Positions 21,001 through 27,000 of a stretch of DNA of 64,000 nt are shown here, piece by piece. The number at the start of each line of letters is the position of its first letter. Positions within the stretch are counted from its first letter, which is position 1. The position numbers were made by a program. The DNA is taken from positions 310,001 to 374,000 of the forward strand of contig CAZERA010000001.1 in the NCBI GenBank assembly GCA_964514565.1, written 5' to 3'. This stretch comes from an uncultured Candidatus Peribacteria bacterium. GTDB lineage: Bacteria; Patescibacteriota; Gracilibacteria; RBG-16-42-10.

Positions 21001-24000
21001 ATTACATATGCTGATGGTAGAGTAGAGAAGAATGACATTGTTTCAATCTACAAAGCTATTCCCGCTGAGGGTTTAATCGGTGTTGCTGCTGCTTCACCAG
21101 CTAATTCTCTACCTGAAGGTACTATTGCTCTCTAGTGAGGAAGTGATAGGAGGCTTGCCTTCAGCAATTCGCCTACTTTTGGTCCTAATAAAATAAGTGC
21201 GATCAAGGTCAAACCCAAGGCAGCCAAAGGAATAATGGTACTAAGCACCTGTTGGGTATTGGGCTTGCGTTTGTTTTGACGGCTCAATTCCTGTAGGAAA
21301 TAACCCTTTGCTGAGATGTGTGGCGCTTCATTGTGCTGCATATAGCTCATGGTCTTGCGCAAGCACTGCATCAATTCTTGCAATTCATACTCCTCAGCAT
21401 TTTCTCTGCTTATACTATCCAGACTCAATTCCCATTCAGCAAGGCGTTGTTCTAAGACATAAGATTCCGCTTCTTTATCACTGAGAAGAATCTGGTGCAA
21501 GCAGTTATTATTGCTGCAGCGATAAGCCGGTTTGTCGGCTGACTTCTCCCAAAAGGTGATGGAGTTTTCTCGAATAAGCATGAGGGCTCCACAACTGGGA
21601 CACTGCTTCTGAAGTGTGGGGGAGCGATCAATCTGAGAAAATGGCATGTGTTTGATATTTGATATCACTACTATTATGTAACCTTTACTGGTACTTGTCA
21701 AGAATTAGAAATGTGGTGAACTACTAATGTAGGGTTGTGAAAACTAAGCGAAGTAGTACTCTGATCACACTTAGCTACTATTATGAACAAAGCGCGCTCG
21801 TATGTCGAATATCTAGTGGGGGGGATTAGGGATATTGTGTTTGGTTTAGAGGATGGGCTAGTGTCTACTGTAGGTGTGCTTACAGGCATTGCTAGTGGTA
21901 CCAATGATCACTTTGTAGTGATTCTTTCTGGATTTGTACTAGTTATCGTCGAGGCTCTTTCGATGGGGGTGGGCAGTTTTCTTTCTACCCAATCAGAAAA
22001 AGATATGCAGCAGAGGCGATTTAAAGATCTCAAAACATTGACCAGAGATGATCCAAAGGCGGCTGAAGCTATTTTGGTAAAACACTATCAAGAAATTGGA
22101 CTTACTCCATCGCAAATTAGCGTAGGTTTAAAGTTAGTGGAAACAAATAAAAAGGTCTTTGCTAAACAGCTTGGTGTATTTCATTTGGGGATGGAGACTA
22201 ATTCTGAACCGAAAAACACATGGATCAATGGAGTCTTTATGTTTTTTTCATACATTATAGGTGGTGCTGTGCCAATTTTGCCTTATTTCTTTTTGCCTGT
22301 AGAACCAGCAATTTTGCTGTCATTGCCATTTACGGTAATAGCACTTTTTATGTTGGGCGCTGCCAAGGGGAAATTAACCTATAAAAACTGGTGGAAGAGT
22401 GGATTAGAAATGGCAGTATTATCTTGTTCTGCTGCTTTATTAGGATTTTTAATTGGCAAGTTGGTGTCGTATTGGTGGGGACTACAAGTGTAGATCAGAG
22501 ATACGAGAGCAGAGATCAGAGTTTTTTTGGGGGGGAAAATTGCCTAGGTATTCTTAATGCGTTCAATAGCCCATGCTGCGTGTTCCTTTACTAAGTCAGA
22601 TGGATCGCTGGTTAGGGCAAGTAAGTACGGTAGTAGGTTTGAATCTTTGAGGTTACCAGCAACTACACAAGCATTTCGAATTAGCCCTACTCTTTTGGCT
22701 CTTAGAAATGGCGTGTTGGCAAAATATTTCTTGAATGTTTCTTGATCGGGAATGGTAAGAATCTTAATCAGAAAATCTTTGGAACTAGTGTATTGAGGAT
22801 TAGTTAAATCTGCCTCTATCTGAATATCTGACCATTTTTCAGGCACATAGGCTTTGGCTCGAATATTATGGGGGCAAACGTCTTGGCAAATGTCACAACC
22901 AAAGAGCCATGTACCCACTTTTTTTCGTAGCTCAAGTGGAATCGGACCTTTATTTTCGATTGTTAAATAAGAAATACAAAGTCGACTGTCTAATTCGTAC
23001 TCAGACGTGAGTGCTCCTGTTGGACACGCTGTGAGACATCTAGTACATGAACCACAGCTGCCTTGTGCTTGAACAGGTGAGGATGGTAATTCGGCAGTAG
23101 TAATGATTTCACCTAAAAGTACCCAGGAACCGTATTCTTTCGTAATAAGTGTAGTATTCTTGCCGATAAAACCCATGTGGGACTTACTAGCAAAACTTCG
23201 TTCCATGAGAGGACCATAGTCCACCGCGAAGCGATGATTAGTCTCTTGGAAGCTTTCAGAAAGTGAGGTACATAATTCGGCCAACTTCTGCTCAAATACT
23301 AAATGGTAATCAGGTTTGTTTTGGGCATATTGACCGACTCTAATCTGATCATTAGTGCTGGGTTGTGTTGCATAATTTAAGGCTACCATAATCACACTTT
23401 TGGCCTCAGGTAATATTTGTTCTGGATGACAGCGCTTAGCTGGATCTCGTGCTAAATAAGCCATATTGCCATGATGGTTTTTTTCTAACCATTGTAAAAA
23501 AGCAGCTTGATCTGAAGTCGGCATTTCTGTGTCACAGATCCCGACTAAATCAAAGCCAATTTTTTGCGCACATTGGTAAATGAGATTGACATCAGAGAGC
23601 ATAATGAAAAACCGCTAAGCTAATCGTCTCTATCCTAGCGATAAATCGTGCATATAACAAAAAAGCCATCCAAGGATGACTTATTTGTTTTTGTTGTGCC
23701 TCTCCTGTCCTATCAGCGATAGTATCATGTATTGCTGAGACGAGGAGTATGATTTTGTTTGTGAAGACAAGCTAGGGCTCTTGCTTGTATTCGTATCTCT
23801 ACCGCTCTTTGGTATGTTTAGGTCTTCACCTTGACCGTTCCCACCTTCAGTGAAATCTCTAGGAGATGACCCGTTGATGAGCATTAGAATTGGTGCGGCT
23901 CTTAGCCTTGAACCGTATTCGAGTAGTAGAGAAGAGAAAATATTTTTGAGATAAAAGTACTTTCTCTTCTCTGCTGAGGCATAACTGTGATGTGAAAGGG

Positions 24001-27000
24001 CAATAATGAGTTGAGGGGACCAAGCTTTGGACTTAGTCCTCAGCTCATTTTGGTTTTTGTTTTCTCGGCAAGCATTTTGGTTTTGGAGTTTTGTTATGGA
24101 TTGCCGAGGCTGCGACGATGTGTGTTATACAAGGCACACATGTGGGGGCCGGATTTCCCGGTTCATCGCTCCAAGAGAGGATCTATCGCAAGACAGTGTG
24201 AAAAATTTCAATTTTTGGTTGGGCTTGGAGATCTTGTCTGATTAGAACGATGAAAAGAAAATCGTGGTTAGAACTTTTTGTTCTATTGTTGTTGTCCGAG
24301 TTGTGAGGGGCGGTGAGTGCTCTGTCTGTTCAACTGAGCTTCAAATCAATATAACCATCCGTTAGTCGATCGTCAATGATATAGAGCTGTACTTACCATT
24401 AGTCTCATTGTGTAATACTATTTGTTACAATGCATTAGATGTGGTTCTTTTGTTTTGTAGAAGTTATTTACTTGAGATTTTACCTATTACTCTGCTTGTG
24501 AGGTAAAAATGAAGAAGTAAGAGGTAAGAAGTGTATGTGCCTGCTCTCCGCAGAGGCGTAGGGACCCCTTTCTGAGCGGCTATTGTGTCCATCAACTTCT
24601 TACCTCTTATCTTTTACTTCTTACTACCTAAGCCTAAGATAGCACCGTACTTAAAGAAAAAACTATGCAGGAATTGTTATTAGAGGGCACAGTGGCTCCT
24701 CAGTTCACCGTACCATCTACTAGTGGCCACGAGGTGAGTCTGGCTGATTTGAAAGGTAAAAAGGTAGTATTGTACTTCTATCCTAAAGATGACACGCCTG
24801 GATGTACTAAAGAGGCTTGTGCTTTTAGAGACAAGACTGAGGAACTCACTGACAAAGGAGCTATTGTACTCGGGGTGAGCCGTGACAGTATTGCTAAGCA
24901 CGATAAATTCCGAGCTAAGTTTCATTTAAACTTTGATTTGCTCAGTGATGAAGCTGGCACAATCTCTGATGCTTATCATGCTTGGGGTGAGAAGAGTATG
25001 TATGGTCGTAAGTATATGGGTATGTTCCGAGTGACGTATGTTATTGATGAGGAAGGTAAGATTCTCAAGGTATTTCCAAAGGTTGATCCTGTGAAGCATG
25101 CAGATCAGATCTTGGCGGTACTATAAAGTCGTTTGTTATCAAAAAAGCAGCCCTTGCTATCAGAGGCTGCTTTTTTGATAACTGCGCGATTTTGCTACTA
25201 AACTAAAGCGTATAGCTCTTTTCTGCTTTAGATACTGTTACTTTTGGTGATACTTTCAGATCTTCTAGCGCGTATTTAATAGCTGTAGCTGATTGTGGCT
25301 CACCATGTACAATGAATATTCCCTTCAATCCTTTGATGGGCTTGATGTAATCAACAATTTCTTGATGATCAGCGTGAGCCGAGAAAGAATTGATGATCTT
25401 TACTTGCGCTCTCAAATGGTATGGCTGTCCAAAGATGCGGACAATGTTATGTCTCTCAGCAATAGCTCTACCCAAGGTGTTCTGTGCCATAAAGCTCACT
25501 ACTAGGATAATATTGTCTGGATTTTCAATTGTGTTCCGTAAATGATGAAGAATGCGGCCACTTTCACACATACCTGATGCTGAGATAATGATCATCGGGC
25601 CCTTTTTGTAATTGAGCTCTTTGGATTCATCAGCTGTATGAATATAGTGTAGACAGCCAAAACCAAATGGATCTTCTTTTTCGTTGAGGAAGCTTTGATA
25701 TGTTTCTTGATCAAAACATTCTGGATGACGACGGAAGATATCGGTAGCATTTACTGCTAATGGGCTATCTACATAGATAGGCAAGCAGGGGATTTTAGCT
25801 TTCTTCTGCAAGAGATTGAGGTGATAAATAATCTCTTGGGTACGTTCTACCGCAAAAGCAGGGATGATAATCTTGCTTCGTTTAGCAATCGCTTCATGAA
25901 TGACTGGTAACAGCTTGTCTTCCACTTCTTGATAGTTGTCATGGAGACGCCCACCATAGGTACTTTCAGTAATTAAATAATCAAGCTCAGTCCATTGGTA
26001 AGGATTTTTGATGATTGGCATACCTTTGCGGCCCAAGTCTCCAGTAAAGCCTAGCTTAGTGATTTTGCCATTTTCATTGATGGTCAGTTCCACTAAAGCA
26101 GAACCTATAATGTGTCCAGCATTGTGTAGTGTAAGACTGACACCAGGACTGATTTCTTTGGCAGTTTCATATGGTAGACCAACAAATAGCTTGCCTACTT
26201 CGATGGCATCATCCTCAGTATAGAGTGGCTCATCATTAACAATGCCAGTGCTTTGTTCGTGCATGTATTCCCAATCTTTTTCTTGAATACGTGCGCTATC
26301 TCGCAACATAATGCTACAAAGATCTGCTGTTGCTAGACTCGTATAGATAGGTCCATGGAATCCCTTTTTGACCACAGTAGGTAAATTACCGCTGTGATCT
26401 ATGTGAGCATGAGACAAAATAATCATGTCTACGTCTTTGAGCTTCTCTGCGTGATCGAGATTTCGGGCAAAGCTATCTGCTCTGCTACCTTGAATCATCC
26501 CGCAGTCCAGCAGAATTTTGACGCCATTGACCTGGAGTAGATGCGCAGAGCCAGTCACTTCTTCAGCTGCGCCAAAAGATGTAATAGTCATGTTTGTGTT
26601 TATTTATCCTATCATTGTATCATAAAATTGATTGTTTTCTTATATCTATGCTGGATTTAGTCAAAAAGATCGTAGCTAATTTCAAGGAAGCCCAAGAACG
26701 TAAATATGGTGCAGCTGTTTGCGACTTAGAAATCTTTAAAGATAATGCGGAACGAATAGTGCTACGCGGTACAATGTTAGCTAGTAAACAACAAAAGACG
26801 CTGGATCAACTTTTACGTCGCAATCATCTTGATCCTATTTGGGACCTTGTCATATTGGCCGATATGGATGAGCCACCTTTAGGCTGGGCATATGCAGACA
26901 AGACTCCCGTAAACGTGTGGAGCAAAATAATCTCAGCAGAACACTTCAGTTGGTTCCAAGAAAAAACTACAGTAAGAATTGGTACTGATCATAAATCTTG

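What a model noticed while it worked through the whole genome (the two positions that open the first line are those of the whole stretch)
23651..24276. Conserved ~630-nt structured non-coding RNA between queG and bcp, with no Rfam family
The longest ORF-free stretch of the genome (C1:333603-334664, no N) holds a non-coding element conserved at the DNA level in all 7 other genomes of the family (71-84% identity) and not found outside it. On the minus strand it folds into about 14 local helices supported by compensatory changes and ends in a GC hairpin plus U-run (intrinsic terminator) ~50 nt upstream of queG. It matches no Rfam family. A 187-nt part (C1:334056-334242) is present, letter for letter, in contigs assembled from four metatranscriptome libraries of three studies.
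Evidence so far: Calls 20,22: 1062-nt gap without a conserved ORF. Call 25: no Rfam 15 hit at E<=0.1 on either strand. Calls 107,109: blastn hits in 7 of 7 family genomes (G401-G407), 0 of 5 outside; no shared ORF in the 8 loci. Calls 111,114: RNAalifold consensus of 8 sequences, 112 pairs, 96.4% of cells paired; 22 pairs with changes on both sides against 11.4+-1.9 in 500 shuffles (0/500 reach it) and 2-3 when partners are slid by 1-3 columns; many invariant U-G pairs fix the strand as minus. Call 116: contigs of 4 RNA libraries from 3 studies (154-173 nt, 0 mismatches) lie on C1:334056-334242. Calls 182-184: a covariance model of the 5' domain (140 positions, 29 pairs) finds exactly one copy in each of the [...]
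(Added by a program. Inside this text positions count along the whole contig: contig position 310,001 is position 1 of the stretch shown here. "Call 12" and the like, gene names such as g00115 and contig names such as C1 are that model's own, and its searches are not shown. The text may have been shortened before it was handed on; [...] marks where a part breaks off. The agent that wrote the report below was given it as the finding of a first reader that could run no searches.)

Follow-up and report, generated by a model that had tools for sequence, protein, structure and literature searches.

The report
New large structured RNA in CPR bacteria
The gap between queG and bcp holds a real gene for a roughly 690-base folded RNA that makes no protein, and it is one branch of a previously undescribed RNA family found across many Peregrinibacteria-type bacteria, with a function that is still unknown.

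Summary
Window ~23657-24343 (minus strand) is a stand-alone non-coding RNA gene. A near-consensus promoter and an intrinsic terminator are conserved in 8 of 8 family genomes. The consensus fold has 121 pairs, 22 of them with compensatory changes. No Rfam family matches, and there is no shared ORF. Contigs from RNA libraries of three studies lie on it, while the flanking genes are uncovered.

- The RNA starts about 65 nt further 5' than 24276.
- It is not confined to the family.

A 22-nt core pattern and two covariance models find homologues in at least 14 further GTDB families of the same class. They were not found in about 143 genomes of other Patescibacteria classes. In most of these lineages the gene lies between gmk and ssb; family f1 carries a relocated, expanded variant.

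The shared core has three parts:
- a long-range helix (CUCCCUAC..UUC with GAA..GUAGGGAG);
- an H-type pseudoknot with 8 different helix sequences;
- conserved single-stranded CA tracts (AACAAAAAC).

Function is inferred only. I favour a trans-acting ribonucleoprotein scaffold or decoy whose CA tracts mimic the G-poor, CA-rich leaders of this Shine-Dalgarno-less organism (about 30%). The queG-leader, SRP, 6S, preQ1, Hfq/CsrA-sponge and template-RNA readings were tested and are not supported.

The parts
24348..24376 (-). Sigma-70-type promoter: -35 TTGACG (24376-24371), 17-nt spacer, -10 TATATT (24353-24348). Predicted start near 24341-24343.
   Evidence: 10 of 12 consensus matches. Both hexamers are aligned and conserved in 8 of 8 genomes. 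The start site is inferred, not mapped.
23657..24343 (-). Predicted transcript, about 687 nt: A 34%, C 26%, G 17%, U 23%.
24149..24266 (-). 5' domain: a long irregular hairpin (helices 2 and 3, 32 pairs) with the apical CA-rich loop AAGCCCAACCAAAAA (24212-24226). Not aligned in the non-f1 homologues.
   Evidence: 5 pairs with compensatory change. RNA-library contigs cover 24056-24242.
24113..24144 (-). Hairpin M1. The sequence varies but the stem is kept (GUGUG/CACAC, GUAUG/CAUAC, AUAUA/UAUAU).
   Evidence: per-sequence folds.
24064..24108 (-). Hairpin M2. Its loop displays CA tract 1, AUAACAAAACUCCAAAACCAAAA (24075-24097). The stem covaries: CUCGGC/GCCGAG against CUUAAG/CUUAAG and CCUUGG/CCAAGG.
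24048..24063 (-). CA tract 2 (AAAACAAAAACCAAAA), a single-stranded linker.
24006..24048 (-). Hairpin M3 (AUGAG..CUCAU; GUAC..GUAC in G001/G002).
23925..23975 (-). Long hairpin H6 (22 pairs). The lower part of its 3' strand is block B1.
   Evidence: 6 pairs with compensatory change.
23921..23932 (-). Block B1 (UCUCUACUACUC), the 5' strand of long-range helix P1. It can pair either with the H6 5' strand or with the core 3' strand.
23840..23915 (-). Helices H8 (23896-23915) and H9-H11 (23840-23881) inside the P1-closed domain.
   Evidence: H8 has 2, H9-11 have 5 pairs with compensatory change.
23811..23836 (-). H-type pseudoknot. The stem is GGUC/GACC (23821-23836). Loop GGUG (23827-23830) pairs with UACC (23811-23814) across an A-rich linker.
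23796..23807 (-). Core 3' strand GAGCGGUAGAGA, the 3' strand of P1 (pairs with B1).
23747..23788 (-). Hairpin CAAGC..GCUUG (23767-23788) and CA tract 3, CACAAACAAAAUCAUAC (23747-23763).
23702..23747 (-). Hairpin H14 (15 pairs), containing UACUGAUAGGA. The non-f1 homologues have GCUGAUAGG here.
23683..23696 (-). CA tract 4 (CAACAAAAACAAAU), just before the terminator.
23657..23682 (-). Intrinsic terminator: 8-bp stem AAGUCAUC/GAUGGCUU, then UUUUUUGUU.
   Evidence: invariant in 8 of 8 genomes.

Best explanation
Window ~24343 to 23657 (minus strand) is an independently transcribed, non-coding, highly structured RNA of about 690 nt.

It is a divergent, relocated and expanded member of an undescribed RNA family. 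The family is present in many families of the Peregrinibacteria/Peribacteria part of this CPR class, where the gene usually lies between gmk (divergent) and ssb (convergent).

Shown:
- its own promoter and terminator;
- covarying helices;
- a conserved core made of a long-range helix P1 (B1 with GAR..GUAGRGA), an H-type pseudoknot and an invariant purine strand;
- four to six conserved single-stranded CA tracts;
- no ORF and no Rfam family.

Inferred: it acts in trans as the RNA of a ribonucleoprotein. The folded core would hold out the CA tracts as binding sites. These tracts look like the G-poor, CA-rich leaders that sit directly in front of start codons in this Shine-Dalgarno-less genome. 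The RNA would therefore compete with such leaders for whatever reads them: the 30S subunit through bS1, or another single-strand RNA-binding protein. B1 has two mutually exclusive partners, which suggests two conformations.

My odds:
- real RNA gene of a new class-wide family: about 0.9;
- decoy/scaffold mechanism: about 0.3.
For: Gene and strand:
- Promoter and terminator are conserved in 8 of 8 genomes.
- 121 pairs, 22 compensatory, 0/500 shuffles reach that count.
- U-G pairs and z-scores favour the minus strand.

Not a queG leader: in G001 queG is replaced by a convergent ORF, yet the RNA is kept.

Family breadth:
- Model R2 (built from f1 and f4) scores 74-79 bits in f1 (8/8) and 51-63 bits in f4 (2/2). 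It also hits the same loci that the independently built R3 hits in G055, G065, G014 and G040.
- The 22-nt core pattern gives 21 loci among 185,579 species genomes. Of these, 5 are f1, 13 are other Peregrinibacteria-type loci (2 of them under other bin labels) and 3 look like chance.
- R3 matches 24 of 151 class genomes and 0 of about 143 genomes of other classes.

Core structure:
- Pseudoknot: 36 of 40 sequences pair 4 bp or more, with 8 different 4-nt helices. On A5 the pairs read 14-33 GC:7/CG:2 and 16-31 UA:6/CG:2/UG:1.
- P1: predicted in 29 of 29 aligned sequences, with compensations UUCCUAC/GUAGGAA, UCUCUAC/GUAGAGA and CCUGC/GCAGG.

CA tracts:
- AACAAAA occurs 3-5 times per RNA, at 7.3 per kb against 0.29 per kb in the genome.
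- The tracts are always unpaired.
- The same tracts lie in sense orientation directly before the ATG of 23 of 913 ORFs.
- There is no SD signal genome-wide.
- A bS1-like gene is present.

Expression: RNA-library contigs from 3 studies lie on the RNA, and none lies on the flanking genes.
Against: - No partner has been identified.
- Hfq is absent in 0 of 8 family genomes. CsrA and cold-shock domains were not found in G000.
- The RRM protein does not track the RNA. It is present in 39 of 43 genomes of f10/f12/f13, which lack the RNA, and absent from f18, where 2 genomes have it.
- CA-rich linkers may be only inert spacers or tertiary (A-minor) elements.
- Only 23 of 913 ORFs have such leaders, and they are not an obvious functional class.
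- Class-level invariance of 16-22-nt blocks is more typical of housekeeping RNAs or ribozymes than of fast-evolving sponge RNAs.
- The ends, strand and abundance of the transcript are not mapped, because contigs cannot show them.
- One contig (X9) runs 140 nt upstream of the predicted start.
- Homology between f1 and the other families rests on a core of about 55 nt plus shared short blocks. R3 itself does not score f1 (0/8).
Confidence: 0.6

Rival explanations
1. A housekeeping ribozyme or the RNA of a catalytic or structural RNP (in the sense of RNase P or OLE). The conserved P1/pseudoknot core would be the active or ligand-binding centre. The CA tracts would be tertiary-contact or spacer elements rather than decoy sites.
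For: - Blocks of 16-22 nt are invariant across GTDB families whose flanking proteins are only about 60% identical.
- The topology is complex, with a pseudoknot and a long-range helix.
- There is a single copy per genome, with a strong promoter.
- Synteny with the housekeeping genes gmk and ssb holds in 27 of 32 loci and 11 of 32 loci.
Against: - No chemistry, substrate or protein can be named.
- No similarity to any ribozyme or riboswitch model in Rfam at E<=0.1-10.
- The RNA was not found in the large sister families of the class (f9, f10, f12, f13: 0 of 58). It is therefore not universally required.
Confidence: 0.25
2. A trans-acting base-pairing regulator, like RNAIII, that uses its conserved single-stranded tracts as seeds against mRNAs.
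For: The RNA has many hairpins with conserved unpaired tracts. The complement of CA tract 1 reads GGAG-N7-AUG.
Against: - GGAG lies upstream of almost no gene: 12 occurrences before 619 ORFs.
- Leaders are G-depleted, so they cannot pair with CA tracts.
- Genome copies of the tracts are in sense orientation, not antisense, relative to genes.
- Hfq was not found.
Confidence: 0.07
3. A cis-acting element: a long 5' leader or riboswitch of queG, or a regulator of the divergent bcp. A preQ1-type pseudoknot would sense a queuosine precursor.
For: In 7 of 8 family genomes the RNA ends about 55 nt before queG. The core is a hairpin plus A-rich tail plus short second helix, the same topology as preQ1-I.
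Against: - In G001 queG is not downstream.
- In 32 of 32 non-f1 loci the neighbours are other genes, mostly gmk and ssb, and none is queG or bcp. The downstream gene is convergent where seen.
- A strong terminator with no alternative antiterminator ends the unit.
- No preQ1 model matches at E<=10.
Confidence: 0.03
4. Not one functional RNA. It would be either two separate small RNAs (a 5' block and a 3' block), or a decaying gene or DNA-level element whose apparent structure is a by-product of relatedness.
For: The middle of the f1 alignment is variable. The RNA-library contigs cover only 24056-24242. The f1 test rests on only 8 related sequences.
Against: - There is one conserved promoter and one terminator, and no internal ones.
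- There is no shared ORF. The 67-codon frame is broken by stops or indels in G005, G003 and G001.
- Covariation in the core is reproduced in more than 30 distant genomes.
Confidence: 0.05

Closest known systems
OLE, ROOL and GOLLD: large 'ornate' bacterial non-coding RNAs (abstracts seen in the search listing: PMC12286853, PMC9723947)
   Same: They are 500-800 nt, multi-helix, with long stretches of invariant nucleotides. They are lineage-restricted, transcribed on their own and of unresolved function.
   Different: There is no sequence or model similarity (Rfam). The host lineage is different (CPR rather than Bacillota or phages). No associated protein genes such as oapA-C lie nearby. Repeated CA tracts and the P1/pseudoknot core are specific to this RNA. 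Oligomerisation was not tested.
CrcZ/CrcY (Hfq/Crc sponge with A-rich 'CA motifs') and CsrB/RsmZ (CsrA sponges). The motif details are recalled and come from no call.
   Same: Several copies of a short single-stranded motif are displayed in loops and linkers between hairpins. AACAAAAACAAA fits an (ARN)n / AAnAAnAA pattern.
   Different: Hfq is absent in 8 of 8 family genomes and CsrA was not found in G000. The RNA carries a large conserved tertiary core that sponges lack. Sequence conservation is far higher than in sponge RNAs.
preQ1-I and other H-type pseudoknot aptamers (topology recalled)
   Same: A hairpin whose loop pairs with a strand that follows an A-rich tail. In f1 it lies next to queG.
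   Different: No Rfam preQ1 model matches. The pseudoknot is embedded in a 450-800-nt RNA closed by P1. In most lineages it is not next to queuosine genes. It is followed by its own terminator far downstream, not by an expression platform.
Template/pseudoknot domain of telomerase RNA, and DGR template RNAs (topology recalled)
   Same: An enclosing helix, then single-stranded C/A-rich tracts, then a pseudoknot. A DGR-type reverse transcriptase gene lies beside the RNA in f28.
   Different: There are no GTTTTT/TTTTTG arrays in the genome or at contig ends. A reverse transcriptase neighbour was seen only in f28 and is convergent. Nothing points to templated synthesis.

Membership tests
Any Rfam 15 family | Covariance-model score at or above the gathering threshold | tested here: not met
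   - Gap 23400-24800: the best hit is 25 bits against a gathering score of 100.
- Whole window: only 2 tRNAs.
- Homologous loci L131-L133, L183, L189 and L209: nothing but one tRNA.
SRP RNA (4.5S or large) | Helix-8 motif recognised by RF00169/RF01854, and an Ffh M-domain partner in the genome | tested here: not met
   - No match at E<=1 in G000 and none in the gap at E<=10.
- 0 of 61 class genomes match RF00169.
- PF02978 was not found in G000.
- SRP subunits are reported absent in many CPR bacteria (PMC8080830, passage read).
6S RNA, RNase P RNA, tmRNA | Model match, or the genome otherwise lacking that RNA | tested here: not met
   RNase P RNA is at C1:276175 (192 bits) and tmRNA at C1:18368 (102 bits), both elsewhere. 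The 6S model has no hit in the genome or the gap. That model found only 5 of 14 control genomes, so a 6S-like role is not excluded by it.
preQ1 riboswitch (queG leader) | Aptamer model match, and a conserved position upstream of queuosine genes with an expression platform | tested here: not met
   No match at E<=10. queG is not downstream in G001 nor in 32 of 32 non-f1 loci.
Hfq/Crc or CsrA sponge RNAs | The cognate protein is encoded in the genome | tested here: not met
   PF17209 (Hfq) is found in 0 of 8 family genomes. PF02599 (CsrA) is not found in G000.
Hfq/Crc or CsrA sponge RNAs | Multiple copies of a short unpaired motif | tested here: met
   AACAAAA occurs 3-5 times per RNA and is unpaired. 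This is a likeness in how it may work, not membership.
Large ornate RNAs (OLE/ROOL/GOLLD) | Family consensus sequence and structure; for OLE, the oap gene neighbourhood | tested here: not met
   No Rfam match. The neighbours are queG/bcp or gmk/ssb.
Large ornate RNAs (OLE/ROOL/GOLLD) | Homo-oligomeric assembly | not testable with these tools
   Needs native gels or cryo-EM.
New family proposed here (gmk-adjacent CA-tract pseudoknot RNA) | Core NNCC-RAAGARNGGUAGRGA, preceded by a hairpin whose loop pairs with NNCC, plus an upstream B1 block complementary to GUAGRGA | tested here: met
   - In the window: pseudoknot at 23811-23836, core at 23796-23807, B1 at 23921-23932.
- Model R2 scores it 76 bits.

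The most novel reading that the evidence does not exclude
This would be the first large housekeeping-type RNA specific to a CPR lineage. It would be a class-wide ribonucleoprotein or ribozyme whose P1/pseudoknot core switches between two conformations, because B1 pairs with either a 5' block or the core strand. Its CA tracts would engage the translation-initiation machinery of organisms that have given up Shine-Dalgarno pairing and the SRP. That would make it a new global regulator of ribosome loading, comparable in rank to 6S RNA or tmRNA.
Probability: 0.2. Interest if true: 0.9.

Novelty: categorically new. Interest (0 to 1): 0.8.

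Why it matters
Only a handful of bacterial non-coding RNAs longer than 400 nt have unknown function, and each has opened new biology.
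- My searches found none described for the candidate phyla radiation.
- This RNA is conserved down to 20-nt invariant blocks across many families of tiny-genome, uncultured bacteria that lack SRP, Hfq, CsrA, cold-shock proteins and Shine-Dalgarno signals.
- Space is at a premium in a 1.1-Mb genome, so a 0.7-kb RNA gene with its own strong promoter is likely to matter.
- The defined core (P1, pseudoknot, purine strand, CA tracts) gives a concrete covariance model for mining metagenomes and a compact target for probing, cryo-EM and pull-downs.

Tried and rejected
- **Anti-RBS idea.** The complement of CA tract 1 reads GGAG-N7-AUG. Rejected because genes here have no GGAG and have G-depleted leaders.
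- **Plus-strand sORF.** The 34-codon Cys-rich sORF at 24096-24200 has its frame broken in G005 by an indel.
- **Minus-strand ORF.** The 67-codon ORF at 23884-23681 is stopped after 12 codons in G005 and frame-shifted in G003 and G001.
- **SRP, 6S, RNase P, tmRNA identity.** Rejected.
- **Hfq, CsrA or CSD partners.** Not encoded.
- **RRM protein as a specific partner.** Its phyletic pattern does not follow the RNA.
- **Template or telomerase-like role.** No repeat arrays were found.
- **Exact-pattern scans with two f1 5'-domain invariants.**
  - Genome scan: 6 of 77 loci are the family's own; the rest are unrelated.
  - Metagenome scan: 3 of 4 loci are identical to G005 or G006, and 1 is a chance hit in a GC-rich contig.
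  - Neither scan gave new diversity.
- **blastn with the f4 RNA over 401 class genomes.** Only f4 matched.
- **Weak model hits taken as chance.** R1/R2 hits inside long ORFs (G015; G014:C3).
- **MAFFT alignment of 29 distant homologues.** It is too gappy for RNAalifold beyond P1. The helices of the non-f1 RNAs are therefore only partly defined.
- **RNA-library contigs.** They show presence only, not ends, strand or level. Uncovered parts are not evidence of absence.
- **Earlier-scan look-ups.** Searches by sequence and by words found nothing.
- **Literature.** Four searches of the held library found no description of such an RNA. Papers outside that library were not searched.

Full report
**Locus.** The window holds a 1062-nt stretch (23603-24664) without long ORFs, between queG (minus, 22544-23602) and bcp (plus, 24665-25126).

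The genome is 1.12 Mb in 7 contigs. Earlier notes of this scan call it a Peribacteria (CPR) bacterium. The public records that hold the homologous loci are labelled Peribacteria, Peregrinibacteria, Gracilibacteria or Abawacabacteria.

With ORFs of 90 aa or more as the criterion, this is the fourth-longest gap of the assembly, not the longest.

**Is it a gene, and on which strand?**
- blastn finds the stretch in 8 of 8 genomes of the GTDB family at 71-84% identity.
- In the alignment of the 8 intergenic regions, a sigma-70-type promoter on the minus strand is conserved in all 8. It reads TTGACG, 17 nt, TATATT (24376-24348).
- The terminator AAGUCAUC..GAUGGCUU plus U-run (23682-23657) is also conserved in all 8.
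- RNAalifold on the 8 transcripts predicts 121 pairs, 22 with compensatory changes.
- In the pair count, 96.0% of cells are paired. The 22 doubly changed pairs compare with 13.3+-1.9 in shuffles (0 of 500 reach it) and with 0-4 when the 3' partners are slid.
- Several U-G pairs are invariant in all 8 sequences and would be A-C on the other strand.
- The minimum free energy lies 7.9 sd below shuffles on the minus strand and 4.7 sd below on the plus strand.
- No ORF is shared. The 67-codon minus-strand frame is stopped or shifted in G005, G003 and G001, and the 34-codon plus-strand frame is shifted in G005.
- Rfam gives nothing. There are ten matches at E<=10, the best at 25 bits for a family whose threshold is 100.

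**Expression.**
- Twelve RNA runs from six studies hold part of the stretch.
- Of the four I laid, three (from three studies) have contigs of 154-173 nt with no mismatch on 24056-24242.
- The fourth has a 267-nt contig with four differences on 24217-24483.
- None covers queG or bcp.
- Contigs show presence only. Strand, ends and level remain unmapped, and the fourth contig reaches 140 nt upstream of the predicted start.

**Not a leader of queG.** queG and bcp flank the element in 7 of 8 genomes. In G001 the RNA's 3' end faces the end of a convergent 182-codon ORF, and queG is elsewhere.

**Not one of the universal RNAs.**
- RNase P RNA and tmRNA are found elsewhere in the genome.
- Small and large SRP RNA and 6S are not found in G000.
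- Small SRP RNA is found in 0 of 61 class genomes.
- The Ffh M domain is not found in G000.
- This agrees with a published remark that SRP subunits are absent in many CPR bacteria (PMC8080830, passage read).
- The gap itself matches no SRP or 6S model at E<=10.

**Wider family.** Exact scans with two invariant f1 5'-domain words only re-found the same species.

A model of the f1 3' core (R1) scores 138-151 bits in 8 of 8 f1 genomes and misses the one other genome of the order. It gave weak hits in both genomes of family f4. Those hits lie in an orthologous clpC-gmk gap that holds its own promoter-to-terminator RNA of about 430 nt.

A 54-position model of the shared block (R2, built from f1 and f4) then hit f28, f8 and others weakly.

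The degenerate 22-mer AMAYRCCRAAGARNGGTAGRGA, scanned over one genome for each of 185,579 species, gave 21 loci:
- 5 are f1.
- 13 are other Peregrinibacteria-type loci. Two of these sit in bins labelled Nitrospirota and Bacteroidia but carry the same module and flanks.
- 3 look like chance: two related spirochaete loci and one Campylobacteraceae locus.

A model built only from the non-f1 loci (R3) matches 24 of 151 sampled class genomes at 38-111 bits:
- f2 1/1, f3 1/1, f8 2/2, f17 1/2, f18 2/12, f19 1/1, f20 1/7, f23 1/10, f27 7/7, f28 3/5, f29 1/1, and further families;
- none in f9, f10, f12 or f13 (0 of 58);
- none in about 143 genomes of other classes of the phylum.

R2 and R3 were built from disjoint sequences. 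They land on the same loci in G055, G065, G014 and G040. R3 does not score f1 or f4, so the link rests on the core of about 55 nt plus shared short blocks:
- UCUCUACUnCUCGA is like CUCCCUACUUUUCGA.
- AUAACAAAACUCCAAAACCAAAA is like AACAAACUCAACAAAAA.
- UACUGAUAGGA is like GCUGAUAGG.

Rfam has nothing for three non-f1 loci either.

**Synteny.**
- gmk lies in 27 of 32 non-f1 loci: upstream and divergent in 26, rearranged in 1.
- ssb lies in 11 of the 32: downstream and convergent in 10, rearranged in 1.
- f4 also has gmk.
- f1, with bcp and queG, is therefore the relocated form. It is also the longest (675-809 nt) because of an f1-specific 5' hairpin domain (24149-24266) and extra hairpins.

**Core structure.**
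1. *H-type pseudoknot.* A hairpin with a freely covarying stem carries GGNN in its loop. That pairs with NNCC, which lies after an A-rich linker and directly before RAAG.
   - RNAalifold proposed the pairing on the non-f1 set.
   - On the f1+f4 alignment, pair 14-33 is GC in 7 sequences and CG in 2. Pair 16-31 is UA in 6, CG in 2 and UG in 1.
   - Over 42 sequences from all families, 40 could be parsed and 36 of them pair 4 bp or more.
   - Eight different helices occur: CACC, UUCC, UGCC, UACC, CGCC, CACG, CUCC and UCCC.
   - Of the 4 that fail, 2 are shifted by one base, in 1 the partner lies further upstream, and 1 (G002) pairs only 3 bp.
2. *Long-range helix P1.* Block B1 (CUCCCUAC-UU-UUC), 140-340 nt upstream, pairs with GAA-CG-GUAGGGAG.
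   - It is predicted in the 29-sequence alignment (11 pairs).
   - Compensated pairs include UUCCUAC/GUAGGAA, UCUCUAC/GUAGAGA (f1 and L199) and CCUGC/GCAGG. The inner part is CUC/GAG in f1 against UUC/GAA elsewhere.
3. *A competing partner for B1.* B1 is also complementary to a 5' block (GAAAAGUGGGG; in f1, the 5' strand of hairpin H6).
   - Duplex energies are -20 to -28 kcal/mol in about half of the sequences.
   - The pairing is compensated in G133 and L196.
   - The two partners exclude each other. This may be a switch or a folding intermediate; that reading is inference.
   - For f1, the nested consensus helices H7 and H13 compete with P1 and the pseudoknot, and they are less well supported.

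**CA tracts.**
- Each RNA carries 3-5 copies of AACAAAA. G000 has 5 in 688 nt, or 7.3 per kb, against 0.29 per kb per strand in the genome.
- The tracts lie in loops and linkers that stay unpaired in all folds, and they are among the best-conserved columns.
- In G000 the same tract types lie in sense orientation directly before start codons, after a TAnAAT box. This holds for 23 of 913 ORFs, which are a mixed set of genes.
- Two further copies of the 15-mer CCAUAACAAAACUCC exist, one exact and one with one mismatch.
- The genome has no Shine-Dalgarno signal:
  - GGAG occurs 12 times upstream of 619 ORFs.
  - G falls to about 10% between -16 and -3.
  - UUAA/UAAC peaks at -16 to -12.
  - The 16S 3' ends of relatives nonetheless keep CCUCC.

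**Mechanism.**
- The sense orientation of the genomic copies and the G-poor leaders argue against an antisense regulator. They are compatible with mimicry of leaders.
- Candidate readers are the 30S subunit with bS1, whose gene is present, or another single-strand binder.
- Hfq (0 of 8 genomes), CsrA and cold-shock proteins are not encoded.
- The single RRM protein does not follow the RNA's distribution.
- I therefore put the decoy/scaffold model at about 0.3 and a catalytic or structural housekeeping RNP at about 0.25.
- A template role finds no repeat arrays.

**Novelty.** No Rfam family matches. Four full-text searches and two look-ups in this scan's notes found no description. The closest known things are the large ornate RNAs and the motif-displaying sponge RNAs. 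This RNA is a member of neither.

Noticed in passing
window 24493-24637: A palindromic repeat of about 130-145 nt, with about 39 further matches across the genome (70-97% identity). It is inserted between the RNA promoter and bcp in G000 only. It may relate to the hairpin repeats of the Ssn nuclease noted earlier in this genome.
   Followed up: partly
whole genome G000; 16S loci L142-L144, L148: Start codons have no Shine-Dalgarno signal. G falls to about 10% from -16 to -3, and a UUAA/UAAC peak sits at -16 to -12. The 16S 3' ends of four relatives still read GAUCACCUCCUUUC.
   Followed up: partly
G000 and 61 class genomes: Small SRP RNA was found in 0 of 61 class genomes. In G000, neither SRP RNA type nor the Ffh M domain was found. 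A paper passage says SRP subunits are missing in many CPR bacteria.
   Followed up: partly
G000 C1:40191 (+) and C4:19664 (-), outside the window: Two further copies of the 15-nt tract CCAUAACAAAACUCC. One is exact and sits in a hairpin loop between fpg and a cysteine desulfurase gene. The other has one mismatch and lies 10 nt before an ATG.
   Followed up: partly
L180 and L194 (family f28), right flank: A reverse transcriptase gene with DGR-type motifs (IGNLTSQ, YGDD; the motif assignment is recalled) lies convergent to the RNA's 3' end. It was seen only in this family.
   Followed up: no
L186 and L191: Contigs in bins labelled Nitrospirota and Bacteroidia carry the complete RNA module. L186 has Peregrinibacteria-type gmk and ssb flanks, and L191 has the same sequence around the motif as the Gracilibacteria-labelled locus L200. 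These are probably binning errors.
   Followed up: partly
window 24405-24432 (+): The conserved GUGUAAU(A/C) box reads as an extended -10 for bcp. It sits back to back with the RNA promoter. In G000 it would give bcp a leader of about 230 nt containing the repeat.
   Followed up: no
G000 C1:478814-479952 and C1:239827-240878, outside the window: Two other gaps of about 1.1 kb without ORFs of 90 aa or more. They were not examined for RNA genes.
   Followed up: no
L131 and L133 (family f4): An RNA of about 430 nt between clpC and gmk with its own promoter (TATGTTATAAT) and terminator. It is the shortest form of the family seen here.
   Followed up: partly
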